DNA of 64,000 bases from an uncultured Clostridium sp. (GCA_947364715.1 CANAUI010000001.1:1157-65156), one strand, 5' to 3'. Counted from the first letter of the stretch, positions 5,079 through 51,496 are shown. Made by a program: numbers and translations. The notes: generated by a model not told the origin, from the letters alone.

Positions 5079-5888
5079 GTGAAATTAATGGAAATATGGA
5101 ATGTGGGAAATCGAATTGTTAATACATATATTTATCAAATAGAAGATGGATATATTATGATTGATACAGGATATGATAATGGGTTTAAAAAAGTATTAAA
5201 AAAAATGGAAAAAAATAATTTAAAACCTGAAAATATAAGATATATTTTCTTAACTCATGCCCATGATGACCATGCAGGTTTTATAAATGAGATTATGAAC
5301 AAATTTCCAAAAATAAAATTAATATGTAATAGTAAATCTATAGAGATTTTAAAAAAAGGTCAAAATCCTTTTGAAGGGGGATGTAGTAGTAAACTAGCTC
5401 TTTTCTTTTGCAATATAATGAAAATTTTTGGGAGAAGTAAACATCTTTTCCCAATAATTTCAGAAGAAAATTTAAAAAGAACTATTTCAATTAATGAGGC
5501 TAATAAAAATGAAATAGAAAAAATATTAAAAGGAAATGTTTATGATACTCCAGGTCATACTAAAGATTCCATTTCATTAATGCTTAATGATGGTAAGTTT
5601 TTTTGTGGGGATGCTTCAATGAATGGGTTACCTAGTATTAACAAAATAACAATCTGGATTGAAAATAAAAAAGAATATGTAGAATCTTGGAAAAAAATAA
5701 TTAGTATAAAACCATTAAAAATATATCCTGGACATGGGAAATCATTTAATTACAATTGCCTTGAAAATAAAATTAATAAATTAGATAAAGTAAAATTATT
5801 AAAATTAAGTGAAGATTCTTTACTTGAGCCATCTGTTCCGAGAGCAGAATTAGAAACAGAAACAAAAAAAGATGAATGGGAAAGATAA
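5079..5888 (+). CDS. MBL-fold metallo-hydrolase
   Basis: HxHxDH motif FLTHAHDDHAGF plus downstream His/Asp ligand residues (TPGHT, GDAS, PGHG). Confidence 0.8.
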   Translation: MKLMEIWNVGNRIVNTYIYQIEDGYIMIDTGYDNGFKKVLKKMEKNNLKPENIRYIFLTHAHDDHAGFINEIMNKFPKIKLICNSKSIEILKKGQNPFEGGCSSKLALFFCNIMKIFGRSKHLFPIISEENLKRTISINEANKNEIEKILKGNVYDTPGHTKDSISLMLNDGKFFCGDASMNGLPSINKITIWIENKKEYVESWKKIISIKPLKIYPGHGKSFNYNCLENKINKLDKVKLLKLSEDSLLEPSVPRAELETETKKDEWER

Positions 5889-6082
5889 ATTACAATATAT
5901 AGGGCTAATAATTAGTTGATAATGTCAGTCTTTTATTATATAATAGTAACATCAATTAGTAAGTTGTAGAGGAGAGATAAATATGATACCAAGAATATGG
6001 TAAGATCACGAGTTATTTCGTGATAAGAACATTATTACAGTAACTCGTATAAAAATACGAAATGTAATAAAGGAGTAAATAA

Positions 6083-7528
6083 ATGGATTTAATAGTAAAA
6101 GCAAAAAATATAGATTTAGAATATAATGGAAGACAAATTTTAAATATTGATAATTTAGAAATATATAACTATGATAAAATCGGAATAGTAGGAAAAAATG
6201 GTAGTGGCAAAACAACATTATTAAAAGTCTTATTAGGACAAATAGAATTAAAAACAGCAGAGATTAAAACTTATGGAAAAATATCATATATTCCACAATT
6301 AGAGCAAATAGATATAACCAACATAGAAGATAAATCTATATTAGGTAAATTAAATGTTCATAATGTAGAAGGTAATAATCTATCAGGAGGAGAAGAAACA
6401 AAATTAAAAATAGCAAAAGCATTATCAGAAAATAGTGATGGCATATTTGCAGATGAACCTACTTGTAATTTAGATAAAGACAGTATCGATTATATAACAA
6501 AAACATTAAAATATTATTCTGGAAGTGTAGTAGTAATCAGCCACGATAGATATTTTTTAGATGAAGTTGTAAATAAGATATGGGAAATTGAAAATGGCAA
6601 AATTACAGAATATTGGGGGAATTATACAGATTATATAGAACAAAAAGAACAAGAAAAGCAAACCCACTTAAAAAAATATGAACAATATATAAATGAAAAG
6701 CAAAGGCTAGAAAAAATAATTACTGAAAAACAAAAGCAAGCACAAAAAGTTGGAAAAAGTAAAAATCAAAAAAGTACAGAAAATGGTGGAAGATTAGCAC
6801 ATCAAAAATCAACAGGGAGTAAAGAAAAAGCACTTCATAAATCAGCAAAAGCAGTAGAAAAAAGAATAGAAGAGCTAGAAGAAATAAGTAAACCAATAAA
6901 AGAAAGGCAAATACATTTTAGAATTAGTGGTTCGCTTGAGATATATAATCCTGTTCCAATTATGAGTGATAATCTAAATAAAAAAATTGGTAATAAAATA
7001 ATATTTGAAGATGCAAAATTTAAAATACCACTTGGCAAAAAAGTAGCAATTACTGGAGCAAATGGAACTGGAAAAACCACATTAATAAAAATGATTTTAA
7101 ATAAAGAAACTGGAATAGAAATATCTCCCAAAGTACAAATTGGTTATTTTGCACAAAATGGATATAAGTTTGAAAAAGAAAAAAATGTTTTAGAGTTTTT
7201 AAAAGAAGAATCAGATTATCAGGTGTCAGAAATAAGAAGTATGATAGCAATGTTAGGATTAAACCAAAATGTAATTACTAGAAAAATGAAAACATTAAGT
7301 GGTGGAGAAATTGTAAAAATATTATTATGTAAAATGTTGCTTGGAAGATATAATGTACTAATTATGGATGAACCTAATAATTATTTAGATATACCAAGTA
7401 TAGAAGCATTAGAAAGCCTTATGAAACAATATAAAGGTACAATAATATTTATATCACATGATAAACGATTAGTACAAAATGTAGCAGATATTGTATATGA
7501 AATTAAAGATAATAAAATAATGGAATAA
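6083..7528 (+). CDS. ABC-F family ATPase (two ABC domains with a long charged linker; possible ARE-type ribosomal protection protein)
   Basis: Walker A GKNGSGKTTLLK and GANGTGKTTLIK. Signatures LSGGEETK and LSGGEIVK. About 80-aa Lys/Gln/Glu-rich interdomain linker. No transmembrane domain. Confidence 0.8.
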   Translation: MDLIVKAKNIDLEYNGRQILNIDNLEIYNYDKIGIVGKNGSGKTTLLKVLLGQIELKTAEIKTYGKISYIPQLEQIDITNIEDKSILGKLNVHNVEGNNLSGGEETKLKIAKALSENSDGIFADEPTCNLDKDSIDYITKTLKYYSGSVVVISHDRYFLDEVVNKIWEIENGKITEYWGNYTDYIEQKEQEKQTHLKKYEQYINEKQRLEKIITEKQKQAQKVGKSKNQKSTENGGRLAHQKSTGSKEKALHKSAKAVEKRIEELEEISKPIKERQIHFRISGSLEIYNPVPIMSDNLNKKIGNKIIFEDAKFKIPLGKKVAITGANGTGKTTLIKMILNKETGIEISPKVQIGYFAQNGYKFEKEKNVLEFLKEESDYQVSEIRSMIAMLGLNQNVITRKMKTLSGGEIVKILLCKMLLGRYNVLIMDEPNNYLDIPSIEALESLMKQYKGTIIFISHDKRLVQNVADIVYEIKDNKIME

Positions 7529-18694: not shown

Positions 18695-18970
18695 TTATTT
18701 ATTAACAACATCTTTTAACGCTTTTCCTGCCTTAAATACAGGTGATTTAGAAGCTGGTATTTTAATTTCTTCTTTAGTTTGTGGATTTCTTCCTTTTCTT
18801 GCTGCTCTTTTTCTAACTTCAAAAGAGCCAAAACCAACTAATTGAACTTTATCACCTTTTACTAATGATTCTGTGATAATTTCAACTAAAGCATTTAATG
18901 ATTCTTCAGCACCTTTTTTAGTAGCACCTGTCTTTTCAGCTAATGCTGCAACTAATTCACTTTTATTCAT
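18695..18970 (-). CDS. hup: HU-family nucleoid DNA-binding protein
   Basis: [36 protein letters not shown]...[49 protein letters not shown] is a hallmark HU/HBsu sequence. GGAGG RBS. The track ORF has 6 extra N-terminal codons. A shared hairpin terminator with the convergent upstream gene lies at ~18648..18690. Confidence 0.9.
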
Positions 18971-19139
18971 CATATTCCCTCCTCTCATAATAGTATTTTG
19001 TTATATTAGTAATTTACCAAAAAGAAAGAATAAAGTCAATAAATAGAAGATTTTTCGACAAAGAATTTTAAATTTAATATTTGAACAAAATAAAAAAATA
19101 TGCTAGAATGATAAATAGATTATAGAAAAGAGGCAAAAT

Positions 19140-19366: not shown

Positions 19367-19711
19367 ATGGGATTATATACTGGGTTAATAAAGTGTAGTA
19401 ATTGTAACCATTCTTTTAAGGGAAGAAAAGAGAGAAATAATATAAACTATAGATGTAATTATAGACTAAAATATGGAACTAATAAATGCGATAATGATAA
19501 TATGGTAGAAGAATCCTACTTAACGGATCTAATAAAGCAACAACTAGATGTTATTAATATGGAAATAGAAGATGTTGACATACATTCTATTGTAGATTAC
19601 ATTATTGTATCAAGAACTAGGATTGAGATATTTTTTAAGAATCTTCCAATTAACAGTTGCTATTATGATAGTTCCTTAGGCAGATTGCACTTTGATACAT
19701 TAAATGATTAA
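19367..19711 (+). CDS. standalone zinc-ribbon/C-terminal fragment of a large serine recombinase (probable remnant)
   Basis: GLIKCSNCNHSFKGRKERNNINYRCNYRLKYGTNKCDNDNMVEESYL is the recombinase zinc-beta-ribbon motif. No resolvase catalytic domain upstream. Has its own AAGAGGAG RBS. Confidence 0.5.
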   Translation: MGLYTGLIKCSNCNHSFKGRKERNNINYRCNYRLKYGTNKCDNDNMVEESYLTDLIKQQLDVINMEIEDVDIHSIVDYIIVSRTRIEIFFKNLPINSCYYDSSLGRLHFDTLND

Positions 19712-19890
19712 AAAGGGGTACAACAAATTTTCAAAAAAATATCGGTAGGGAAGGTCAAAATTGGAATAATTTATTAAAATTGGCATATAATATAAAGTAA
19801 AGAGTTTTTTGCCTAGAAATTCAACTAAATTTTCAAAAATGTATTGACAAAGGCTCATTAAAAGTATATAATATAAAAGCGTTGAAACAT

Positions 19891-20218
19891 CGCGGGGTGG
19901 AGCAGTTGGCAGCTCGTCGGGCTCATAGAGGTAAATTGTGGCTCTACTTAGAAATATGTAGATGAACTGTGGGTGAATTCAAAGAAGGCTAAAGTATTTA
20001 TTTGAATATCATGTTAACTTTGAGCCAAGCTAAAAGTACACTTTTAGAAGGTGCAGAGACTACTGGAGGAATAGAGTTTCCTTAATTACCAGATTTAGTA
20101 CCCACTACCTAAAATAATATTGCAATATTATCAAGGTAAAGACATAGTCCAGCCTATAGTGAAAATTATAGATAACTAAACCCGAAGGTCGATAGTTCGA
20201 GTCTATCCCCCGCAACCA
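19891..20218 (+). tRNA. initiator tRNA-Met (anticodon CAT) interrupted by a group I intron in the anticodon loop
   Basis: 5' exon cgcggggtggagcagttggcagctcgtcgggctcat and 3' exon aacccgaaggtcgatagttcgagtctatcccccgcaacca reconstitute a canonical bacterial tRNA-fMet (C1xA72 mismatch, three G-C pairs in the anticodon stem, encoded CCA). They are separated by ~252 nt. Confidence 0.8.
19927..20178 (+). ncRNA. group I intron (no ORF) inserted after anticodon U36
   Basis: R-like element gtgcagagactac (20051..20063) and S-like element aagacatagtcc (20138..20150) can form P7 (GACTA/TAGTC). P-like aaattgtggctc near the 5' end. Insertion site is the same as known tRNA introns (5' exon ...CAU). Exact 3' boundary uncertain: as read the intron would end in A rather than the expected G. 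Confidence 0.7.
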
Positions 20219-20228
20219 AAGTATAGAA

Positions 20229-20262
20229 ACATTTACAAATTCGTGTAAATGTTTTTTTATTT
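20229..20262 (+). terminator. rho-independent terminator after the tRNA
   Basis: aaacatttaca-aattcg-tgtaaatgttt followed by TTTTTT. Confidence 0.55.
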
Positions 20263-20578: not shown

Positions 20579-22060
20579 ATGCACACTTTTCTAGTTGTTC
20601 TTCACAAAGTAGTTCTTCTAGTATATATTCTAATACATTCACAACAATACTATTCCCCGCCTGTTTATAAAGCTGAGTATCTGAAATTCCTACAGATTTT
20701 GCTTTGTAAAAATCTTCATCATCAAACCCGCATAAGCCTCCAGCACTCTAAAGGAGATAGTTTTCTAATTCTCATATAATGTTTTCCATCTTCTGATACA
20801 AGGACAGTTGAACTTGAAGTTGTGTTTCCACAACTTGTAGTTTGACAAGGTGCAATATCAGTTATCTCTTTATTGTTGTATGGATTAAACATTGTTTTTT
20901 CAGCTATTTTTGTTTTAAAATTACTTGCAACAATAGATGTGGCAATCCCTTCTGGATCATAAACTCTGTCTTGTATGCTTAATTTGTTATACTTATTGTT
21001 AATACAAATTGGTTTATCTATATTTTCTAATGTAGCCATATTGGGTGAGGTTAAAATTGTTTGAGATACTTCTTTTCCAACTCTACCTCTTTTTGTTGTA
21101 CTAGATGGATATGATATATTTATGGAATCACCTACTTTTGCTTTTGCATAACCACTCTTTGTACCTTCCTTAACTAGTACAAAAGGTTGCTTACTTCCTC
21201 CATTTGACATAGTAGTTAGAGTAGGAGAAATACCTTCTGGATTATAAACACTTCCAGCTTGATGCTTTTTATTTTCTTCATCATACAACCCTATAATTTT
21301 ATCTACTTTGTTTTCATCTGCTATATATTGATTGTTCCTTCCGTCCATTTTGTGATAACCTGCTATGAGGCAAGAACTTATTTCTGGATTTTGCATAGTT
21401 CTGACTAATTTGTTACTTTTCTTTATTAATCTTCCGATACCTTTTTCACTAAGATAATACTTTTCTTCAACATTATCTTCCAAAAAATCCTTAAGTTTCC
21501 ACAATAAAGGCACTTTGGGTGGAAAACAAAATTCACTTTGTGCTATATCTCCACGTACAGAGATAATAAAAACACGTTCTCGATTCTGTGGAATACCGAT
21601 AATCTTTGCTATTCAATACCTTCCAATAGTTTGTATATCCTAAATCTGATAAATCTTTTAGGATAGAATCAAATTGACTCTTAAACCTTTTGCTAGTTAG
21701 ATTTTTTACATTTTCTATAATACTGTAAGTTGGTCTTTTTTCTTTTAAGATTCTGTATCCTTCGTAGTATAACCCACTCCTAGTTTCATTTTCTTTAATG
21801 CCTTGCATTTTTCCTGCAATCGAAATGTCTTGGCAAGGAAATCCCCATGTCATAATATCAAAGTTTGGCAATATATTTGCATCAATTTTAGATATATCAC
21901 CATAATTCAATTCTTCTGAAACATTATGAATCGCACAATATGATTTAACTGCAAATTTATCTATTTCTGAGAATCCTACTAATTCATAAGGGATTCGTAA
22001 TCTTTCTAATGCTTTTTCAAAAGCCCCTATTCCAGAGAATAGGCTAAATAATTTTAACAT
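20579..22060 (-). pseudogene. C5-cytosine DNA methyltransferase (Dcm-like) interrupted by two 1-nt frameshifts
   Basis: Motif I FSGIGAFE, motif IV GFPCQDIS, motif VI ENV. ...VLNSKDY then frameshift (~21595). Next frame GIPQNRERVFIIS (motif VIII)...RKLSPLECWRLM then frameshift (~20725). Next frame GFDDEDF...QAGNSIVVNVLEYI (motifs IX-X). Confidence 0.75.
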
Positions 22061-22117: not shown

Positions 22118-23788
22118 TTAAGCCACTTTAATTTCACTATAGCTTTTATCAATTTCTTTCTTTTTATCTAACACATATTTTTCTAATTCTGTGCCAGTTA
22201 TATTTCCAATTAATTTGTCATCTTTATCATAAATTTCATATTCCTTATCATCAACTAAAAATAGTGTGTAATACTGGTGTTTTTCGTTAAATGCAGTATA
22301 TTTCTTAGGAATATGTATTTTTTCTTTAGTATAAGGTAAATTAATACAAAAGCAATCATTATTAGATTTTTTATAATCAATATGATTGCCTCCAAATTTT
22401 ATATTGTGGATGAAAAGATTGCTTTTTGAAAGTTTTTCTTCTTTAATTGTGTCTAAATGATTAAGTTCTCTTTGCAATTCTAATACTGCTTTTTTTGTCT
22501 TATTAATCTCTATTCTCTTTGGTAAAGAATCTTTTATGATTTGCTTTGCCTCATCTATTGAATTTATCTTTAATTCATTTTGTAAACTTAAAAATATTTC
22601 TACATCTACAGGTAAAGTATAATCTGGATTTACTTCTTTATAAGACATTGCATATTGATAAACCTTAAATAACCTAATATAATCTTGTGCTTTTTCCGTT
22701 CTGTCAATAATCCTATTAAAAGTATCTTTGTTCTTTTTTAACATTTGATTTAAAGATTTTATTTGTTCTCTTTTATTATTTATTTGGATTTCTATATCTT
22801 CAAAGGATTTTATATTATATTTATCCAGGTATTCTAATTGTTGTTTTAATTTGTAATATCTCTTTATCTCTTGATACCTTGTTTTTTGATACTCACTATA
22901 TATTTTACCTTCTGTAGATAACATACTTTTTTCTAAAGCTACTTTTGATTTATTTATTCTATTTATTAATTCATTATTAAATTTATTTTTAGAAACTCTT
23001 ATTTCTTCTAGTACAAGATTGTTTTGCGATTTATAATAGTTATATAAATTTTGTTCAGTATATCTTGAATCAATAGTGGATAATCTTGCATACTTTTGCA
23101 TACCTGTAGTTTTAACTGAAATATGTTTCCCTCTTTTTACACTATATCCAAGTATAGATAGCTCATCTAACATTTGCTCTATACTACTACATTTTAAAAG
23201 TAAATCCTCTACATCTTCTTTGATTTTTTGTTTCCAAGTTTGTTCTTTATATTGATGGTAATAATTTTTATTTTTAACTTTACTAAAGGTTCTCTTAGGC
23301 ATAATATAACAACCATACTCACTTGCAATTTTATCACTTACATCACTTAATCCATAAAGCCCTTCTTTTGGATTAGCCAGTCTATCATCTAACTTTTTAC
23401 CATTTAGATTTATAGAGTTTATCGCTATATGGTTATGAATATGACCTCGATCTATATGTGTACTAATAACACATTCAAAATCTGGATATAATTCTTCACA
23501 AAGTCTTTTACCTATTTCATTAGCTTGCTCTGGTGTTATATTATCGTTTGGTGAAAAACTTTGTATAACATGATAGGCTACTCTATTACCTCTCATATCA
23601 AACTTTTTTTGCGTCCTTGTAAAATTCAATAAAGCAGATTCTACTTTACAATTTATAGATGATGTAGCAGCGACTTTCTCACCATCATTTTTTTCATCTA
23701 AAATATATGAAATTAATTCGTTTGGAGAATTATAATGAGGCATCCTTTTTGTATAAGGCATATTATTCTTCCTCCATTTGTTTCTCAC
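22118..23788 (-). CDS. conjugative relaxase (MobP/MobA-VirD2-like nuclease domain)
   Basis: N-terminal YHVIQSF... and 3-His motif STHIDRGHIHNHIAINSINLNG. Long coiled-coil C-terminus. Confidence 0.7.
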   Translation of the reverse strand: MRNKWRKNNMPYTKRMPHYNSPNELISYILDEKNDGEKVAATSSINCKVESALLNFTRTQKKFDMRGNRVAYHVIQSFSPNDNITPEQANEIGKRLCEELYPDFECVISTHIDRGHIHNHIAINSINLNGKKLDDRLANPKEGLYGLSDVSDKIASEYGCYIMPKRTFSKVKNKNYYHQYKEQTWKQKIKEDVEDLLLKCSSIEQMLDELSILGYSVKRGKHISVKTTGMQKYARLSTIDSRYTEQNLYNYYKSQNNLVLEEIRVSKNKFNNELINRINKSKVALEKSMLSTEGKIYSEYQKTRYQEIKRYYKLKQQLEYLDKYNIKSFEDIEIQINNKREQIKSLNQMLKKNKDTFNRIIDRTEKAQDYIRLFKVYQYAMSYKEVNPDYTLPVDVEIFLSLQNELKINSIDEAKQIIKDSLPKRIEINKTKKAVLELQRELNHLDTIKEEKLSKSNLFIHNIKFGGNHIDYKKSNNDCFCINLPYTKEKIHIPKKYTAFNEKHQYYTLFLVDDKEYEIYDKDDKLIGNITGTELEKYVLDKKKEIDKSYSEIKVA

Positions 23789-40924: not shown

Positions 40925-43354
40925 CTAAGCCACTTTAAGTTGCATATTTGATGTTTGATTTAATTCATATATATAAGATTCTTTTGAAATTTGATTTCTA
41001 AAAGGAACTTTATCTTCACCATACACCAATATTCCTTGACCTGCTGGAGAATCCATCACATACCTTGATTCCTCCTCCGAAATATCGAATATTTTACATA
41101 TAGCAGGTAGGTCCAAAGCCTTTTGTTTTAAAATCATTGCAAATTCTGAATTAGACAGTATTTTACATCCCTGTTCATTTTTAATTACATCTCCGAATGT
41201 TTTGCGTAATTATAGTAGGTATCGCATTTTCCTTTCTTCCGAGTTTTATAGATTTTAGCAATGTAATCAGCAGAGTAGGGATTTGCTAACAATATGTGAA
41301 ACTCATCAATGAAAATCCAAGTATGTTTTCCTAAATTTTTGTTTCTTTTTAATCTGTTCATAATATGCTCTAAAACAACAAGATAACCAGTTGTCTGAAT
41401 AGAACGAGGTAACTCTGATATATCAAAAGAAATTAAACGGTTTTTAATTTCAATGTTTGTTTTTTTAGAGAATATATCCATTCCACCTAGAACATATCTT
41501 TCGAGAACTAAAGCAAGGTTTTTAGCCTCTCTTTCTGGTTGTTTCATTAATTCTTCATAGAATTTTATAAAATCTGGTTCATATTGCTCACTAAAATTAT
41601 GAATCTGATATTCCTCATATATATTTTTAGTACATCTATCAACAAGTGTTTTTTGTTCTCCTGAAAGACCAGCACTTGATACAAGCGATTCTATAAATGC
41701 TAATGAAAATTCTATTTTATTATTTAGAGTTTCTTCATCATTCTCATATTGCAAAGAAGAATCAAAAGGATTTATATATGTGTTGCTAGAGGTACTAATA
41801 TTTAATGTTTGCCCTCCAAAGGCATCAATTAATGGTTTATATTCTCCGTTGCGGATCTAAAATAACAATTTCATCTTGTGGGTGTCTCAATAGAACTTGC
41901 TCTATATTTAGTTTTATTGAGAATGATTTTCCAGCACCACTTGTTGCCAAAACACATCCATTGCCATTTAATAATCTTTTTCTATCTGCAAAGACTGGAT
42001 TTTTTGATACTAGGTTAATTCCATAGAATATACTATTTTCGTGCATTAAATCTTTGGTGTTGAATGGAACATTTGCAGCGGTACTTTCTGATGTTAAAGA
42101 CCTTTGCATTTGTAAAGTATTATAACCAAAGGCAAGACAGTTTTGTAATCCTTCAAGTTGCTGCCAGTCTAAATTATAAATTGCGATTAAATGCTCACTA
42201 GCAATACTTTTTATCATTTTAGTTTCTTTTTCTAGTTCATCCAAACTATCTGATTGAATACAGATAAGAATATTATTAGTAAATAGTTTTTGCTTTTTCT
42301 TTTGTAAGGCATCTCTTAAAGATTGAGCATCTCTTAAAGCATCTTCTAATTTCTCATCTCTAACTGCCTCATAACTGTAGTTATTCTTATTGGCTTTTTT
42401 AATCTTTTCAAGTCTTTCAGTTTTCATACCACTTATTTTTTTATTAACCTTTTGTATAGTCTTTGATGGATCTGTAGGAGTTATATTAAGTGTTGTTATG
42501 ATATTACAGTTTTCTAGTGTAGAAATTCTATTATAAAATCTAGGAGTTATAGATTTAGGTAATCTGCTAACATACATTACTCTAATAAACTTTTTATTTC
42601 CTATGCTTATATAATTTTTCTCTCTTAAAGAAACATCTTCTTTACTTGCTAGAACATCATAAATGCTTAAATTATTATCTTTAGCATATCCAATAATATC
42701 AGTAATTCCTTCATCTTCCATTAAATTAGTATGGAACAAATTATATAAAGGTGCTAATCTTTCACCAATACTTATCCTTCTAATTTTAGATTTTAATTCC
42801 TTAAATTTTTCTTCTGTTCTTAACTGATATTGCATAAAAATATCTTGTGCATCTGCTAGACTTTCTGCTTTTGTACTTATTGTTATAAGTCTAGTATCAC
42901 AAGATATATTTTCTTTATTTCCTAAACAATTTTCAATTTGTGTATTAAATTCTTTTCCTATCCTTAACTCATTTCCTTGTAGTTTGTTTTCATCATATAT
43001 ATAATTCTTTTTATAATCAACTCTTTTTACTGGTGTACCTATTTTTATGACTTGGATATGGTCATTGAAGTTAAATGAATGTAAATATGATACCCATTTT
43101 AAAAATATGCTTTCTTGTGTTTCATAGTCAGCCTTTGAAAAGGATATATCTTGATATTCAAAGCATATAGAATAGTGTTCATCATCTAACTGTAGGATAG
43201 AAGTATTTTCGTTATAAGATTTAAAAAACATATTCATAATTTGAGATGTAGTGCGAGGTTTTGCTATTTTATTTGCTTTTCGTTTTTTTAAGAAAAGACT
43301 AAATCTTGATTCTCTCTTACTTTTTGTTTCTTTCTCTTTTTTTACTTTAGTCAA
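40925..43354 (-). pseudogene. VirB4/TraE-family conjugative ATPase split into three ORFs by frameshifts
   Basis: Walker A LATSGAGKSFSIK ...EIVILDPQ then frameshift (~41850). Continues NGEYKPLIDAFGGQTLNISTSS...HTWIFIDEFH (Walker B). Second frameshift ~41150..41185, then a 70-aa tail. Confidence 0.75.
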
Positions 43355-47908: not shown

Positions 47909-49151
47909 CTGCCTCTTTTTCTATTTCATTATCAAAATTAACCTCTATCTCTTTAGGATTTTCAGCTATAGTAGGGGAGTTGTTTGCATCTTTTTCTAAT
48001 TGTTCAAAAATATGCAATCTTTCTAGTTCTTCACTTACTACATCTCTTTTTTTTTCTTTTTCTGCAAGTTCCTTTAAGTCTGCCTTTGCAACAGTCCAGA
48101 AGCACTCATTTTCTTGCCTTTTCATAATATAATTTTTACCAGATAAAGTAGAATATATTTGTTTCTCCTCATCACCAGTTTTACTTTTAAAAGAAACTAG
48201 CTCCTCTTGCGACTGGATATTCCATTGAAAGTTTTTATTATTGTTTCCATATACATACATTTGCCCATAGTCATTAAAGCCCAATTCATTGTATCTTTCA
48301 AGATGTTTATTTTCAAAATATATGTTAGCAATTTTTTCTTCATCTTCATTTTCAATGATTTTAATACCATAAGGAATATCTGCAACTTCAAGATCATCTT
48401 CAATAGACATAAATGAAGAAAAAGGCATCTCGTGAACACAATAATCTTGCTTAAATTTATCTATTCCTACATTTCCCATATCATGTAATTTGAATTTATC
48501 TGATAGATTTCTTAATTGTTCTGAATTTAGACTTTTTCCACCATTTCTTAGTTGTTCGATTGCAGATTGTGTATTTTCATCAAATAGTTTTTGTGAAATA
48601 CCAGTTCTATACTCTATTAAATCTGCTATTCTATCAGCCATATAAGGAGCTTTTGATTTGTTATAGTATATATTATAATATTTATTTTTATGATGCTTAA
48701 CCTCTGTATTTTGCTTATCCTGATATTTTTTTATAACTGAATCTAATTTAATAAATTTAGTAGCTTTAGGAAAATGTGCCTTTAAATCACTAAGTTGCTT
48801 TATTTTACGAGCATATCTTGTGATTCTTTTTTGTTCATACAAAGATTTCTTTTTTCCAAATTCACTATCTTCTGTAGATAATTTTCTTTCTGATGCAACC
48901 ACTCTAATACCATCATTTTGGCATTTCTGCATTATCCTAATGGTTTCATCATAGGAAAGATTAGTTAGTTTTTCCAGTTCTTTCGTAGGTCCATCTTTTT
49001 GAACTGCCTTAATTCCTTCTAAGAAGTAGTGATACCCAAATATGGATAAAGGTTTTAACAAATATTTAAAACTATCTTTTATACCTGTTTTTGTTGCTCT
49101 TGTAGCACCTTCATAAACTTGTGCTGCATCCGATTTATTACTTGCCTGCAT
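47901..49151 (-). CDS. hypothetical conjugative-element protein
   Basis: 416-aa ORF, start overlaps the primase stop. Confidence 0.5.
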   Translation of the reverse strand: MQASNKSDAAQVYEGATRATKTGIKDSFKYLLKPLSIFGYHYFLEGIKAVQKDGPTKELEKLTNLSYDETIRIMQKCQNDGIRVVASERKLSTEDSEFGKKKSLYEQKRITRYARKIKQLSDLKAHFPKATKFIKLDSVIKKYQDKQNTEVKHHKNKYYNIYYNKSKAPYMADRIADLIEYRTGISQKLFDENTQSAIEQLRNGGKSLNSEQLRNLSDKFKLHDMGNVGIDKFKQDYCVHEMPFSSFMSIEDDLEVADIPYGIKIIENEDEEKIANIYFENKHLERYNELGFNDYGQMYVYGNNNKNFQWNIQSQEELVSFKSKTGDEEKQIYSTLSGKNYIMKRQENECFWTVAKADLKELAEKEKKRDVVSEELERLHIFEQLEKDANNSPTIAENPKEIEVNFDNEIEKEAGD

Positions 49152-51496
49152 TAAGCCATCACCTCTTTTTCCATTTGTATTGAATATAATTTAAAATACT
49201 TTTTATAGAATTCATCTAATGTTAATCTGCTATGAAATTTCTTTTTATGCTCATTATTATCTATTTTATATTCACTCATATTGGCTTGATTAGCTTGATT
49301 ATTTAATATTTCTATTCTATTATCCTCTTTTTTATATAATTGTTTTGGAATATAAATTTGCTTTGTATCATCTATTGGAAGATACATACCATTATAAGTT
49401 TCCTTCTCTTTACCTGATAATTTTATAAAAATAGACATAGGCTTAGATTCTTTTATTTTCTCTTTTTCTACAATAGTTTCTTTTTGTGGTTCTATTTCCT
49501 GTTTAATCTCATATTCAGTATTTTTAATACTTTCAGCAGTTAATCCTAAAATATTTTTATTGTTATTAAATACTAATAAAGTTTTAAATTTCTCGTTATT
49601 TACAAACTCTCTACTCATTGCAGATTTCATATCATCCGAATATGCAAAACCATACCTAACAGCCTCCATTACCATTTCATTTTTAAAACGAGAAATAGAC
49701 TGTTCTTTTAATAGTTTTTCATAACTTTTAGGGAATAATTTTTCAAATTGCTCATGAGAATTTGCAATGAAAATTTCCTCAAACTCATCTGGATTATTCT
49801 CAATATATTCCTTAATATTATTATCAAAACTATCATTGTATTGTTTTATTACAAGTTCTTTTTGTTCTTTAGATAAATTAAGACTTACTTTATTTCCTTT
49901 AGAATCAAAAGCCTTAACATTATCTAATAGGTGTTCAAGGATAAAAATTTTATCATTTTGAAAATTGATATATTGTTCTGATTTGAATATATAATTCTTA
50001 ATATAACTACCTATATTAACAGTTAAACTATCATCTTTTAAATATTGTTCATTATCTAAAGATTTGATTAAAGTATTAGAATCTAGTTTTCCAGATTCTA
50101 TATATTTTAATAAAATGTTATCCTGATGCTTGTTAGCACAATTTTTTATCAATCCGATTATATAGTAATAGAAAAATACATCCTTATATCTATTAACTCT
50201 GTTTTCTTTTACTTCTGTAGGATTAATAATTTTTTCTATTTCATCATTTGAATAATCAGAATTATTAGTTATAAATTCTTTAAAATTTAAAGCATCTTTT
50301 GTATCTTTTATTAATCTATCTTTACACATTTTATTGTATATATTGTGGATATTTTCTACAGATAATTCTTTATTTTGAATATATTTATATTTTAGTAAAA
50401 AAGTAAATGCAGATATTTTTGTCTGATATACTTGCTCTCTCGTTATATTTGCCATTTGTAAATCTCCAAAATCTTTATAATTGCCTAACTTAGCAACATC
50501 TAATACATTTACTTTTAATTTTGCTTTTAATAATTCTGGAATAATCCTAATCATAGCCTCTTTACCTGCATTATCATTATCTAAACAAAGAGTTACCTCA
50601 CATTTTAGTTTTTTTATTAAGTCTATATGCTCTTTTGTTAGTGCTGTTCCCATTGAACCAACTACATTATCTATTTTCATTGCTTTTGCAGAAATTACAT
50701 CCATATATCCTTCAACAATAATAAGTTCATCATTTCTAGCATAAGATTTAGCCCTATGATAATTGAATAATACATTGCTTTTATTGAATATTTCTGTTTC
50801 TTTGGTATTCAAGTATTTAGGTTTTATACTATCATTTATTGCTCTTGCACCAAATCCTACTGCATTTCCGTTACTGTCAAAGATAGGGATAGTTATTCTA
50901 TTGATAAAGACATCTGTGTAACCATTACTAGATTCTTTAACAATTCCAACTTCTATCAGATCATCCAAAGAATATTTTGATAAAAGATTATTCATTACAT
51001 TATTTGTACCTACATTAAAACCAATATGAAATTGACTTATAATTTCTGTAGATAAATTCCTATTTTTTAAATACTTTAAAGCATTTTGACAGTCAACATT
51101 ATTTACTTTTAGATTATTTTCACTAATTGTAATTGCATCTTTTAAAATATTATTCAGTCTTTGTACTCTTTGTTGTTCTTCTGTTAAAGGTGTATTATTA
51201 CTAGGAATTGTAATGTTTAGTCCTTGAATATCAATAGCCTTTTGCATTGCATCTTTAAAACTAATTTGATTATGATTTATCTCATTTTCATATTTTTGGA
51301 TGAAAGAAATTGCATTTCCACCACTTCCACAAACGAAACACTTTGCGATTCCTTTACCAGAGTGAATACTCATAGATGGGTGAGTGTCATTATGAAAAGG
51401 ACAGTTACATTTATTTTTTGTAACTTTTAATCCATAATGTTCTAATATCGTTTGAATATTAGAACTATTTAATATATCCTCGTAAACATCACTCAT
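49151..51496 (-). CDS. DnaG-type DNA primase (CHC2 zinc finger + TOPRIM) with long C-terminal extension
   Basis: CPFHNDTHPSMSI...KCFVCGSGGNAISF zinc finger. TOPRIM LIIVEGYMDVIS...LCLDNDNAGKEA. Confidence 0.8.
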   Translation of the reverse strand: MSDVYEDILNSSNIQTILEHYGLKVTKNKCNCPFHNDTHPSMSIHSGKGIAKCFVCGSGGNAISFIQKYENEINHNQISFKDAMQKAIDIQGLNITIPSNNTPLTEEQQRVQRLNNILKDAITISENNLKVNNVDCQNALKYLKNRNLSTEIISQFHIGFNVGTNNVMNNLLSKYSLDDLIEVGIVKESSNGYTDVFINRITIPIFDSNGNAVGFGARAINDSIKPKYLNTKETEIFNKSNVLFNYHRAKSYARNDELIIVEGYMDVISAKAMKIDNVVGSMGTALTKEHIDLIKKLKCEVTLCLDNDNAGKEAMIRIIPELLKAKLKVNVLDVAKLGNYKDFGDLQMANITREQVYQTKISAFTFLLKYKYIQNKELSVENIHNIYNKMCKDRLIKDTKDALNFKEFITNNSDYSNDEIEKIINPTEVKENRVNRYKDVFFYYYIIGLIKNCANKHQDNILLKYIESGKLDSNTLIKSLDNEQYLKDDSLTVNIGSYIKNYIFKSEQYINFQNDKIFILEHLLDNVKAFDSKGNKVSLNLSKEQKELVIKQYNDSFDNNIKEYIENNPDEFEEIFIANSHEQFEKLFPKSYEKLLKEQSISRFKNEMVMEAVRYGFAYSDDMKSAMSREFVNNEKFKTLLVFNNNKNILGLTAESIKNTEYEIKQEIEPQKETIVEKEKIKESKPMSIFIKLSGKEKETYNGMYLPIDDTKQIYIPKQLYKKEDNRIEILNNQANQANMSEYKIDNNEHKKKFHSRLTLDEFYKKYFKLYSIQMEKEVMA

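What the first reader, a model, noticed from the sequence alone, without database searches (positions are those of the whole stretch)
19891..20218. Initiator tRNA-Met gene split by a self-splicing-type group I intron
The two exons flank a ~252-nt insert placed immediately after the CAU anticodon, the canonical position of tRNA group I introns (as in Azoarcus tRNA-Ile and cyanobacterial tRNA-fMet). The insert carries R-like (gtgcagagactac) and S-like (aagacatagtcc) elements able to form P7 and a P-like aaattgtggctc segment. It has no ORF. tRNA introns are rare in bacteria, and I am not aware of them being typical in Clostridia-like genomes. One oddity: as read, the last intron base would be A, not the universal omega-G (possible 1-nt error or a non-canonical boundary).
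Basis: partly seen in the sequence, partly recalled or inferred. Interest (0 to 1): 0.75.

Follow-up and report, generated by a model that had tools for sequence, protein, structure and literature searches.

The report
Initiator tRNA intron lacking terminal G
A start-codon (initiator) tRNA gene is interrupted by a genuine group I ribozyme-type intron whose last base is A instead of the guanosine these ribozymes are thought to require, and eleven related gut-bacterial sequences keep the same oddity, so it is not a sequencing error.

Summary
Window 19891-20218 is an initiator tRNA (tRNA-fMet, CAU) gene with its own perfect sigma-70 promoter and a terminator. A 252-nt ORF-less group I intron (Rfam Intron_gpI, 84.7 bits, E=4e-20) splits it between U36 and A37.

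Eleven relatives were found in uncultured Clostridia MAGs and metagenomes (77-96% intron identity). They support a full P1-P10 fold with an extra P7.1 hairpin (97% of cells paired, 24 covarying pairs) and an intact cloverleaf with initiator hallmarks.

Three things place A at the omega position:
- the exon logic
- P10
- the register of P9.0, with one compensatory swap and the same rule in omega-G relatives

The G-binding pair in P7 is canonical. Splicing itself is inferred, not shown.

A tRNA-fMet intron at 36/37 is already a described class (fMet.5Ug). A natural omega-A is described for hexacoral mitochondria, and I found no bacterial report. I therefore call this a new variant of a known kind.

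The locus is also a hot spot for mobile elements that break tRNA-fMet genes at the anticodon loop.

The parts
19844..19872 (+). Sigma-70-type promoter of the tRNA gene (TTGACA, 17 nt, TATAAT; 12 of 12 matches)
   Evidence: The homologous promoter region is also present upstream of the orphan 5' fragment at 62.9 kb.
19891..19926 (+). 5' exon: tRNA-fMet nucleotides 1-36, ending with the anticodon CAU. U36 (19926) is the -1 base of the 5' splice site.
   Evidence: It shows C1xA72, A11-U24 and G29-G31.
19927..20178 (+). Group I intron, 252 nt, no ORF, with helices P1-P10 plus P7.1
   Evidence: Rfam 84.7 bits. Covariation on 11 sequences. No ORF.
19936..19943 (+). Internal guide sequence. UU (19936-37) pairs with A37 A38 of the 3' exon (P10). 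GUGGCU (19938-43) pairs with the 5' exon (P1), and G19938 forms the U.G wobble with U36.
   Evidence: Read from the sequence; invariant in 11/11. The same UU-GUGR guide occurs in the omega-G seed Yba21.fMet.5Ug.
20056..20062 (+). P7 5' strand (GAGACUA), with bulged A20057 and G20058 of the guanosine-binding pair
   Evidence: It pairs with 20145-20150, invariant 11/11. The G20058-C20149 assignment is by alignment to the Rfam consensus and to Tetrahymena G264-C311 (established knowledge).
20063..20092 (+). P7.1, an extra hairpin between P7 and P3' that is absent from classical IC3 tRNA introns
   Evidence: Three covarying pairs. It is treated as an insert by the Rfam model. It is present in the P7.1-bearing seeds of Williams 2020 and is nearly identical in crAss-like phage introns.
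20145..20152 (+). P7 3' strand (UAGUCC, 20145-50) followed by J7/9 AG (20151-52), the 5' half of P9.0
20154..20171 (+). P9 hairpin, 7 bp with a GAAA tetraloop (20161-64). G20171 pairs with C20154 and is the base the covariance model mistakes for the intron's end.
   Evidence: C-G is invariant 11/11 and the inner pairs covary.
20172..20178 (+). Seven-nt 3' tail AUAACUA. CU (20176-77) is the 3' half of P9.0, and A20178 occupies the omega (last intron) position.
   Evidence: Tail variants are AUAACUA, GUAGCUA and GUAAGUA, always 7 nt and always ending UA.
20179..20218 (+). 3' exon: tRNA-fMet nucleotides 37-76 including CCA
   Evidence: The T stem and pair 7-66 covary across the family.
20225..20262 (+). 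A+T-rich terminator-like hairpin followed by a U run
   Evidence: Fold -13.6 kcal/mol, z = -5.6. It is missed by the GC-rich consensus scan.
62835..62872 (-). Orphan 5' fragment of a second tRNA-fMet gene (nt 1-38) with its own promoter (62919-62890). It is cut in the anticodon loop at the same place as the intron insertion site, and it is inverted relative to the intron-bearing gene. It marks the far end of the ~42.6 kb conjugative element.

Best explanation
Window 19891-20218 is a stand-alone initiator tRNA (tRNA-fMet) gene with its own promoter and terminator. A 252-nt ORF-less group I intron interrupts it between U36 and A37. The intron belongs to the P7.1-bearing kind seen in some bacterial tRNA and clostridial tmRNA genes, not to the classical IC3 kind.

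Shown:
- The ribozyme fold and the tRNA cloverleaf are both maintained by compensatory changes across 11 diverged homologues.
- The only exon junction that yields a normal tRNA, with the same CUCAUAA loop in every member, is U19926|A20179.
- The last intron base is A in every member.
- The G-binding pair of P7 is the canonical G-C.

Inferred mechanism: exogenous guanosine docks in P7 and attacks after U36, which sits in a U.G wobble with guide G19938. The 3' splice site is then positioned by three elements:
- P9.0 (20151-52 with 20176-77)
- the 2-bp P10 (19936-37 with 20179-80)
- the anticodon-stem pairing between the two exons
The exons are ligated after A20178. This would be a natural omega-A intron, working either slowly on its own or with help from a host factor. 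G20171, where the covariance model stops, is the closing pair of P9 and not the intron end.
For: - Group I identity: Rfam 84.7 bits.
- Ribozyme fold on alignment A1: 97.3% of cells paired against 35-44% in slid controls, and 24 pairs changed on both sides.
- tRNA fold: 94.4% paired. Three T-stem pairs and pair 7-66 (which joins the two exons) covary. The 1x72 mismatch is present in 11/11.
- Exon junction: only the U36|A37 junction gives tRNA-Met(cat), and it does so in all 11.
- P9.0: A-U is invariant, and G-C in 10 members is swapped to C-G in L004.
- P9.0 register in relatives: in 7 of the 11 Williams omega-G seeds I transcribed (of 26 in that seed alignment), including all 6 with P7.1, the two bases before omega pair with the first two bases of J7/9. 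The same register puts A at omega here.
- Closest 3' end: the Tsu4 tmRNA intron 3' end GAUCACUG compares with GAUAACUA here.
- Guide sequence: UU-GUGG matches UU-GUGA of the omega-G fMet.5Ug seed.
- Not an assembly error: 12 independent assemblies carry A.
- Precedent for omega-A: the hexacoral mitochondrial ND5-717 intron has omega-A and gives perfectly ligated exons in vivo (PMC8146996 and PMC6545197).
- Housekeeping context: in L004 the gene closes a tRNA cluster (Leu-Leu-Tyr-Gln-Val).
Against: - No splicing data exist for this family.
- Omega-G is treated as universal and essential. Omega G-to-C mutants of bacterial tRNA introns accumulate the intron-3'exon intermediate (PMC13011429).
- The G-binding pocket shows no compensating change.
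- P9.0 covariation rests on one event.
- Invariance of the omega A carries little weight on its own, because 58% of intron columns are invariant.
- I could not check whether these genomes also hold intact intronless tRNA-fMet genes. L002 has one 4.2 kb away, so the intron-bearing copy might be dispensable.
- L004's copy has two anticodon-stem mismatches.
Confidence: 0.65

Rival explanations
1. Dead-end or decaying gene. The intron is genuine, but the G-to-A change at omega blocks exon ligation. In that case the locus yields no mature tRNA, and other tRNA-fMet genes supply the cell.
For: Omega-G is regarded as essential, and omega-G mutants stall after step 1. The G-binding site is unchanged. 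The gene sits among mobile elements and gene fragments. L002 carries an intronless copy nearby. L026 is a truncated copy. L004 has anticodon-stem mismatches.
Against: All 11 members share the A, so it predates their divergence. After that change arose, both the ribozyme (24 pairs with changes on both sides) and the tRNA kept their structures by compensatory change. The tRNA changes include pair 7-66, which spans the two exons. Every full-length copy with sequence upstream keeps a strong promoter or the native promoter.
Confidence: 0.17
2. The 3' splice site lies elsewhere. One option is after G20171, as the covariance model's end suggests. Another is a shifted pair of splice sites that gives a CUA (amber or 'Pyl') anticodon, as ARAGORN's intron mode proposes.
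For: The Rfam alignment ends at G20171. ARAGORN -i calls tRNA-Pyl(cta) with the intron at positions 35-286. With a 5' site after U33, L020 and L033 would have a G at the corresponding omega.
Against: G20171 is paired in P9 in 11/11. A junction after it gives an 11- or 14-nt anticodon loop, which ARAGORN does not type. The CUA reading needs C or U at -1 and C, A or G at omega, and it would make the anticodon differ between members (CUA against GUA in L004). It would also place the covarying P9.0 bases in the exon. The P1 and P10 registers match the fMet.5Ug class.
Confidence: 0.05
3. Sequencing or assembly error: the true last base is G.
For: None beyond the expectation that omega is G.
Against: The same A is found in 12 independently assembled sequences from different samples and species-level bins, with diverged neighbouring positions.
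Confidence: 0.01
4. Add-on hypothesis, compatible with the best explanation. The intron-bearing gene is cargo of integrative or conjugative elements that insert into, and split, the resident tRNA-fMet gene at its anticodon loop. The intron interrupts that same target sequence. The element-borne replacement gene would then be immune to the recombinase or homing nuclease while still encoding initiator tRNA.
For: Orphan tRNA-fMet fragments lie next to the intron gene in 6 of 11 loci. The 5' fragments end at nt 38-41 and the 3' fragments start at nt 32, so the shared core is the anticodon loop CUCAUAA. In the window the fragment keeps the native promoter next to a SufBD gene and is followed by about 42.6 kb of conjugation genes that end at the intron gene. 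In L002 the fragment carries the promoter that drives the intron gene in L001 and L005, the intron gene has its own distinct 3' exon, and a chimeric-looking intronless gene lies at the other end of a restriction-modification island. L010 has a tyrosine integrase and RepA_N beside the 3' fragment.
Against: No complete attL/attR pair was recovered. In the window the intron gene is inverted relative to the fragment, and no 3' fragment is present. No intact integrase was found in the window: only a serine-recombinase zinc-ribbon remnant turned up among the ORFs scanned, and many ORFs of the element were not scanned. The repeats next to the fragments may be replication iterons rather than arm sites. 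tRNA genes are integration hot spots in any case, and L001, L003, L005 and L012 show no fragments in the flanks held.
Confidence: 0.3

Closest known systems
fMet.5Ug class of bacterial tRNA group I introns (seed Yba21.fMet.5Ug; Williams 2020, bioRxiv 10.1101/2020.01.27.920355)
   Same: Same host gene and same insertion site (CUCAU|AA). Same guide-sequence logic: UU for P10 followed by GUGR for P1. No ORF.
   Different: That seed ends in G and has no P7.1 hairpin. It has a different J7/9 (GACA) and a longer 3' tail. Here omega is A and P7.1 is present.
Group I introns in the T loop of clostridial and Thermoanaerobacter-type tmRNA genes (seeds Cbo40.tmRNA and Tsu4.tmRNA). The C. botulinum intron self-splices (PMC2729099).
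   Same: Extra helices between P7 and P3'. The J7/9-P9-tail architecture is near-identical: Tsu4 has AGUCC-AGC-[7 bp, GAAA]-AUCACU-G, and here it is AGUCC-AGC-[7 bp, GAAA]-AUAACU-A. The hosts are Clostridia-type.
   Different: The host gene is tmRNA, not tRNA. Those introns have both P7.1 and P7.2. Omega is G.
P7.1-bearing tRNA introns of the Williams 2020 seed set (Pam37.Asn.4Ug, Dba165.Lys.2Ug, Mba55.Phe.2Ug, Mga42.Leu.1Ug)
   Same: GCAGAGACUA core followed by P7.1. A two-base P9.0 immediately precedes omega. Pam37 has a 7-nt tail, AUAAGU-G, against AUAACU-A or GUAAGU-A here.
   Different: Other tRNAs and other anticodon-loop positions. All end in G.
Classical IC3 tRNA introns (Azoarcus tRNA-Ile, Anabaena tRNA-Leu, cyanobacterial tRNA-fMet)
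   Same: Small, ORF-less, located in the anticodon loop, with a GAAA-capped P9 and the exons paired in the anticodon stem.
   Different: They have no P7.1 and have omega G. The cyanobacterial fMet intron is inserted after U33, not U36.
Hexacoral mitochondrial ND5-717 group I intron
   Same: The only natural omega-A group I intron I could find described. It is spliced precisely in vivo despite lacking omega-G (PMC8146996 and PMC6545197).
   Different: It is mitochondrial and interrupts a protein-coding host gene. It is giant, with genes in P8, and is thought to depend on host factors or back-splicing. No sequence relationship was tested.
Group I introns of crAss-like gut phages (NC_055894 cr6_1, NC_055893 cr4_1)
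   Same: The P6-P7-P7.1 segment is 73-86% identical, with Rfam scores of 96.7 and 75.4 bits.
   Different: They are not in a tRNA-fMet gene. The host gene and splice sites are not annotated, so omega could not be read.

Membership tests
Group I intron (Rfam RF00028) | Covariance-model score above the curated gathering score | tested here: met
   84.7 bits against 50, E=4.2e-20, full model 1-253
Group I intron (Rfam RF00028) | P1 formed by the 5' exon and an internal guide sequence, with a U.G wobble at the 5' splice site | tested here: met
   U19926.G19938, A-U and C-G, then further pairs. Invariant in 11/11, so there is no covariation to count. The guide is homologous to that of the fMet.5Ug seed.
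Group I intron (Rfam RF00028) | Conserved core helices P3-P9, including the P3/P7 pseudoknot | tested here: met
   97.3% of cells paired, 24 pairs with changes on both sides, slid controls 35-44%
Group I intron (Rfam RF00028) | Guanosine-binding site: a G-C pair next to a bulged A in P7 | tested here: met
   G20056-C20150, bulged A20057, G20058-C20149; invariant 11/11. The assignment is by alignment to the consensus.
Group I intron (Rfam RF00028) | Last intron nucleotide is G (omega-G) | tested here: not met
   A20178 in the window and in all 11 relatives. The nearest upstream G (20171) is paired in P9.
Group I intron (Rfam RF00028) | Two-step guanosine-initiated self-splicing | not testable with these tools
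   Needs in vitro transcription with GTP, or RNA from a carrier organism
Bacterial initiator tRNA (tRNA-fMet) | CAU anticodon in a 7-nt loop and a standard cloverleaf after intron removal | tested here: met
   ARAGORN calls tRNA-Met(cat), 76 nt, for all 11 spliced sequences. 94.4% paired, with a covarying T stem.
Bacterial initiator tRNA (tRNA-fMet) | Mismatch at 1x72 | tested here: met
   C1xA72 in 10 members and A1xA72 in L004; unpaired in 11/11
Bacterial initiator tRNA (tRNA-fMet) | Three consecutive G-C pairs (29-31 with 39-41) in the anticodon stem, and A11-U24 | tested here: met
   GGG/CCC in 10/11 (L004 has A29xC41). A11-U24 in 11/11.
Classical IC3 bacterial tRNA introns | Compact core with no helix between P7 and P3' | tested here: not met
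   A 30-nt P7.1 hairpin (20063-20092) with three covarying pairs. The Rfam model treats it as an insert.
fMet.5Ug class (Williams 2020) | Intron between U36 and A37 of tRNA-fMet, with U at -1 and G at omega | tested here: not met
   Site and U at -1 are met. Omega is A, so in that nomenclature this would be 'fMet.5Ua'.
Mobile (homing) group I intron | Intron-encoded homing endonuclease | tested here: not met
   No ORF in the window copy. One relative, L004, carries a 133-aa HNH_3 ORF in the P5 loop (E=2e-17).

The most novel reading that the evidence does not exclude
This reading has two parts. First, a small (about 240-250 nt), protein-free bacterial group I ribozyme family ligates exons with adenosine at the omega position despite a canonical G-C guanosine pocket. 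That would make it the first bacterial (and tRNA) counter-example to the omega-G rule. Second, the family rides on integrative or conjugative elements that destroy the resident initiator-tRNA gene at its anticodon loop. Those elements would bring an intron-interrupted, and therefore target-immune, replacement gene.
Probability: 0.25. Interest if true: 0.8.

Novelty: new variant of a known kind. Interest (0 to 1): 0.6.

Why it matters
Omega-G is written into textbooks, annotation software and intron databases as a universal requirement of group I splicing. The same G-binding site is thought to serve both chemical steps.

This family is compact, ORF-less and bacterial. Both its ribozyme and its essential host tRNA have stayed under structural selection after omega became A. 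That makes it a tractable system for several questions:
- How is the 3' splice site chosen when omega is not G?
- Is exon pairing in the anticodon stem, together with P9.0 and P10, sufficient?
- Is a protein cofactor needed?

It would be far easier to study than the giant mitochondrial ND5-717 intron.

There is also a practical consequence. Standard tools miss the gene, truncate it or mis-type it. Default ARAGORN finds nothing, the Rfam model ends 7 nt early, and ARAGORN's intron mode calls it tRNA-Pyl. Initiator tRNA counts in these gut Clostridia MAGs may therefore be wrong.

The link with elements that break tRNA-fMet genes at the same position suggests a possible role for an intron as a shield for an integration target.

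Tried and rejected
- **Default ARAGORN on the window.** It found no tRNA. The intron is too long for the default mode, so this is not evidence against the gene.
- **G20171 as omega (the Rfam end).** Rejected. It is the P9 closing pair, and the resulting anticodon loops have 11 or 14 nt.
- **Alternative 7-nt loops from shifted splice sites (CUA or CAA anticodons; ARAGORN -i 'tRNA-Pyl').** Rejected. They give non-canonical -1 and omega bases, an anticodon that varies between members, and a conflict with P9.0.
- **Search for a compensating change in the G-binding pair (A-U instead of G-C).** None found.
- **Pairwise global alignment to the Williams seeds, to name a single closest relative.** The identities (67-78%) did not discriminate, so no claim is made.
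- **Synteny between the window and related loci.** None beyond the gene itself, apart from C5-methylase homologues.
- **Plasmid and phage collections.** Plasmids match only the 5' exon of the tRNA and do not match the intron. Phages match only the intron core of crAss-like phages. Two viral-contig scans found no family member.
- **Source look-up by the exact relaxase protein.** Not on record.
- **Looking for the other end (3' tRNA fragment) of the conjugative element in the window.** Not found.
- **Williams 2020 Table 1 (class counts by phylum).** It is an image and could not be read. I therefore cannot say whether a 'Ua' case was among the four calls that paper set aside as errors.
- **PMC99078 (the tmRNA intron paper).** Not held.

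Full report
**1. What is at the coordinates**

- Positions 19891-19926 read CGCGGGGUGGAGCAGUUGGCAGCUCGUCGGGCUCAU.
- Positions 20179-20218 read AACCCGAAGGUCGAUAGUUCGAGUCUAUCCCCCGCAACCA.

Joined, they make a 76-nt tRNA that ARAGORN types as tRNA-Met(CAU). It carries the bacterial initiator hallmarks:
- a C1xA72 mismatch
- A11-U24
- three G-C pairs at 29-31/39-41

The 252 nt in between (19927-20178) give the only Rfam hit in the 64-kb window: Intron_gpI, 84.7 bits against a gathering score of 50, E=4.2e-20, full-length. No ORF longer than 27 aa lies inside.

The gene has a perfect TTGACA-17-TATAAT promoter at 19844-19872. An A+T-rich hairpin plus U run follows it (-13.6 kcal/mol, z = -5.6). Default ARAGORN sees no tRNA anywhere in the window.

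**2. Relatives**

Neither specified the bases between the S element and the 3' exon.
- The first returned five loci from species-representative genomes: four uncultured Clostridia MAGs and one labelled Mollicutes.
- The second returned six from metagenomes.

Ten relatives are full pre-tRNAs. One of these (L004) carries a 133-aa HNH_3 endonuclease ORF in the P5 loop. The eleventh (L026) is a 5'-truncated copy.

Intron identity to the window is 79-95.5%. The most distant pair is 77% identical.

**3. Structure**

I drew P1-P10 by hand on the 11-sequence alignment A1 and counted pairs.
- 97.3% of cells form standard pairs, against 35-44% when partners are slid by 1-3 columns.
- 24 of 76 pairs show changes on both sides. 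These fall in P2, P3, P4, P5a, P6a, P8 and P9, and in an extra hairpin between P7 and P3' (P7.1, 20063-20092).
- P7 is invariant. It has the usual bulged A and a G-C pair (G20058-C20149) at the guanosine-binding position.
- P9 (20154-20171) is a 7-bp stem capped by GAAA.

The tRNA cloverleaf is 94.4% paired. Three T-stem pairs covary, as does pair 7-66, which joins the two exons. Both the ribozyme and the tRNA have therefore been kept by selection while the family diverged.

P7.1 sets the intron apart from the classical IC3 tRNA introns. It aligns with the P7.1-bearing tRNA and tmRNA introns in the seed alignment of Williams 2020. The P6-P7-P7.1 segment is also 73-86% identical to group I introns of crAss-like gut phages.

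**4. The 3' end**

The covariance model stops at G20171, but that G pairs with C20154 in all 11 sequences. After it comes a 7-nt tail:
- AUAACUA in the window and seven of the aligned relatives (also in the truncated copy L026)
- GUAGCUA in L020 and L033
- GUAAGUA in L004

The exon sequence AACCCGAAGG follows the tail.

I enumerated every way to obtain a 7-nt anticodon loop. Only the junction U36|A37 gives the same loop (CUCAUAA) in all members and has U at -1. It makes the last intron base A (20178). Other options fail:
- Junctions after G20171 give 11- or 14-nt loops that ARAGORN cannot type.
- ARAGORN's intron mode proposes a shifted split that yields tRNA-Pyl(CUA). That needs C at -1 and C at omega, and it would change the anticodon in L004. 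I treat it as an annotation artefact.

Three further lines support the register with A at omega.
- The two guide bases 5' of the wobble G (UU, 19936-37) pair with A37 A38 as P10. The guide UU-GUGG matches UU-GUGA of the omega-G seed Yba21.fMet.5Ug.
- The two bases before the terminal A (CU) pair with the first two bases of J7/9 (AG) as P9.0. In L004 the G-C is swapped to C-G.
- The same P9.0 rule holds in 7 of the 11 seeds I transcribed from the 26-sequence Williams alignment, including all six with P7.1. Those seeds end in G. The closest 3' end, from the Tsu4 tmRNA intron, reads AGUCC-AGC-[7 bp, GAAA]-AUCACU-G, against AGUCC-AGC-[7 bp, GAAA]-AUAACU-A here.

The A is therefore the homologue of omega-G. 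It is not a boundary error, and twelve independent assemblies exclude a sequencing error.

**5. How it most likely works**

Shown:
- the fold and the exon logic
- the conserved A
- the canonical G pocket

Inferred:
- guanosine-initiated cleavage after U36
- exon ligation after A20178, with the 3' splice site held by P9.0, P10 and the five-pair anticodon stem formed between the exons

The main argument is that the omega-A state is shared by all members, so it predates their divergence. Compensatory evolution then continued in both the ribozyme and the tRNA. That is hard to reconcile with a locus that cannot finish splicing.

Several points count against this reading.
- There are no splicing data.
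- Omega-G is held to be essential, and omega G-to-C mutants of bacterial tRNA introns stall as intron-3'exon (PMC13011429).
- Nothing in P7 compensates.
- P9.0 covariation is a single event.
- The A's invariance is weak on its own, since 58% of intron columns are invariant.
- I could not census other initiator genes in these genomes.

That the G264-C311-type pair specifies guanosine, and that changing it to A-U shifts specificity toward adenosine or 2-aminopurine, is recalled from Michel et al. 1989 and Been and Perrotta 1991. I did not check those papers here.

**6. Comparison with what is known**

[quoted passage not shown] A survey of about 80,000 genomes extended four classical classes to 21 and includes fMet.5Ug, an intron at this very site. 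That survey found U at -1 and G at omega in 98.5% of raw calls. It accepted only one non-canonical class, Leu.3Cg, and set four other calls aside as errors.

The classical cyanobacterial fMet intron is at a different position (fMet.2Ug). Every seed in that paper's alignment ends in G.

The only natural omega-A intron I could find in the literature held here is the hexacoral mitochondrial ND5-717 intron. It is spliced precisely in vivo (PMC8146996, PMC6545197).

So the gene-plus-intron arrangement is a member of a known kind. The family-wide omega-A in a small bacterial tRNA intron is a variant I did not find described.

**7. Surroundings**

To the right of the gene, at 20271-62586 on the minus strand, lies a conjugative element. 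Its genes include:
- a split C5 methyltransferase
- a MobA/VirD2 relaxase
- an LPD1 protein and an NlpC/P60 protein
- a TraC-like protein
- a DnaG-type primase
- SpaA-type adhesins and a sortase
- a DUF3789 protein
- a replisome-organizer-like protein

At its far end (62872-62835, minus strand) is an orphan 5' fragment of a second tRNA-fMet gene, nt 1-38.
- Its promoter is homologous to the promoter of the intron gene.
- A SufBD gene lies beyond it.
- The homology between the two copies stops in the anticodon loop, at the intron insertion site.

Five relatives also have orphan fragments within about 230 nt upstream of the intron gene.
- 5' fragments ending at nt 38-41 occur in L002, L018 and L020.
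- 3' fragments starting at nt 32 occur in L010 and L033.

The shared core of all these fragments is the anticodon loop. Other observations at these loci:
- L010 has a tyrosine integrase and RepA_N beside its fragment.
- L002 has a restriction-modification island and then an intronless tRNA-fMet with two mismatches, which suggests a chimera.
- L002's fragment carries the promoter that drives the intron gene in L001 and L005.

This looks like repeated site-specific insertion into tRNA-fMet anticodon loops, with the intron-bearing gene either travelling with the elements or surviving beside them. An intron at that exact spot would remove the target sequence. I rate that idea at about 0.3. Reasons for caution:
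- No complete pair of element ends was recovered.
- The window's copy is inverted relative to the fragment.
- No intact integrase was found among the window ORFs I scanned, and many ORFs of the element were not scanned.
- tRNA genes attract elements anyway.

**8. Verdict**

The terminal A is real, conserved and homologous to omega-G. Whether and how such an intron completes splicing is the open and testable question.

I class it as a new variant of a known kind, with interest 0.6.

Noticed in passing
window 62835-62919 (minus strand): An orphan 5' fragment of a second tRNA-fMet gene (nt 1-38) with its own TTGACA/TATAAT promoter, which is homologous to the promoter of the intron-bearing gene. 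The homology ends in the anticodon loop, exactly at the intron insertion site. The fragment is inverted relative to the intron gene and 42.6 kb away. A SufBD gene (63265-63714) lies beyond it.
   Followed up: partly
window 20271-62586 (minus strand): A conjugative-element gene set of about 42 kb. It includes a MobA/VirD2 relaxase (22118-23788), LPD1 (30771-32840), NlpC/P60 (39058-40914), a TraC-like protein (41837-43354), a DnaG-type primase (49151-51496), SpaA adhesins (52596-56736), a sortase (58741-59478) and DUF3789 (62362-62586). No intact integrase was seen among the ORFs scanned, and many ORFs of the element were not scanned.
   Followed up: partly
window 62540-62680 and 61522-62355: Four copies of TTAGGGAT/ATCCCTAA lie between the tRNA fragment and a replisome-organizer/DnaD-like gene, so they are probably iterons. 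Similar ATCCCTAA repeats lie between the 3' tRNA fragments and the intron genes of L010 and L033. AAAGGGAC repeats occupy the same place in L002, L018 and L020.
   Followed up: partly
window 20722-21513 and 21533-22060 (minus strand): A C5 cytosine methyltransferase appears split into two ORFs just downstream of the tRNA gene. Intact homologues lie downstream of the intron gene in L002 (with an Eco47II-type endonuclease) and in L005.
   Followed up: no
window 19367-19711 and 18695-18988: A 114-aa ORF directly upstream of the tRNA promoter holds only the zinc beta-ribbon of a large serine recombinase, so it is a remnant. An HU-like DNA-binding protein gene lies on the other strand.
   Followed up: partly
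L002 1658-1696, 1887-2203 and 6393-6468: One contig carries three tRNA-fMet pieces. The first is a 5' fragment with the native promoter. The second is the intron-bearing gene, 190 nt further on. The third, after a restriction-modification island, is an intronless tRNA-fMet with A7xC66 and A27xA43 mismatches, which suggests a chimera made by recombination in the anticodon loop.
   Followed up: partly
L004 6368-7005, with tRNAs at 5467-6236: This copy closes a tRNA cluster (Leu, Leu, Tyr, Gln, Val). It carries an HNH_3 endonuclease ORF in the P5 loop of the intron. It also has two anticodon-stem mismatches (CCAGG against CCCGA), as if the 3' exon had been co-converted during a recent homing event.
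   Followed up: partly
L026 (whole contig, 2546 nt): A 5'-truncated copy. Only the 3' half of the intron (from the P5 loop onward) plus the 3' exon is present, joined to unrelated genes. Coverage is low (1.67x), so a chimeric assembly is possible.
   Followed up: no
L035 1-98, 1235-1356 and 1394-1653; L036 1-121: In crAss-like phage cr6_1 (L035) a RAGATH-7-assoc RNA (133 bits) lies immediately upstream of a 260-nt group I intron (96.7 bits). RAGATH-9 RNAs occur nearby in both cr6_1 and cr4_1 (L036). No host gene is annotated across the intron.
   Followed up: no
L025 160-432 (minus strand): A different group I intron (77.4 bits) lies in what looks like a long-variable-arm tRNA. It ends ...GGGG before AAACCCGAAGG and appears to have a normal omega-G. 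It came up only because of a chance pattern match.
   Followed up: no
window 19860-20250; L020 3762-4079: Annotation traps. The Rfam model ends the intron 7 nt early. The L020 homologue produced no Intron_gpI hit at the gathering threshold, although it aligns throughout.
   Followed up: partly
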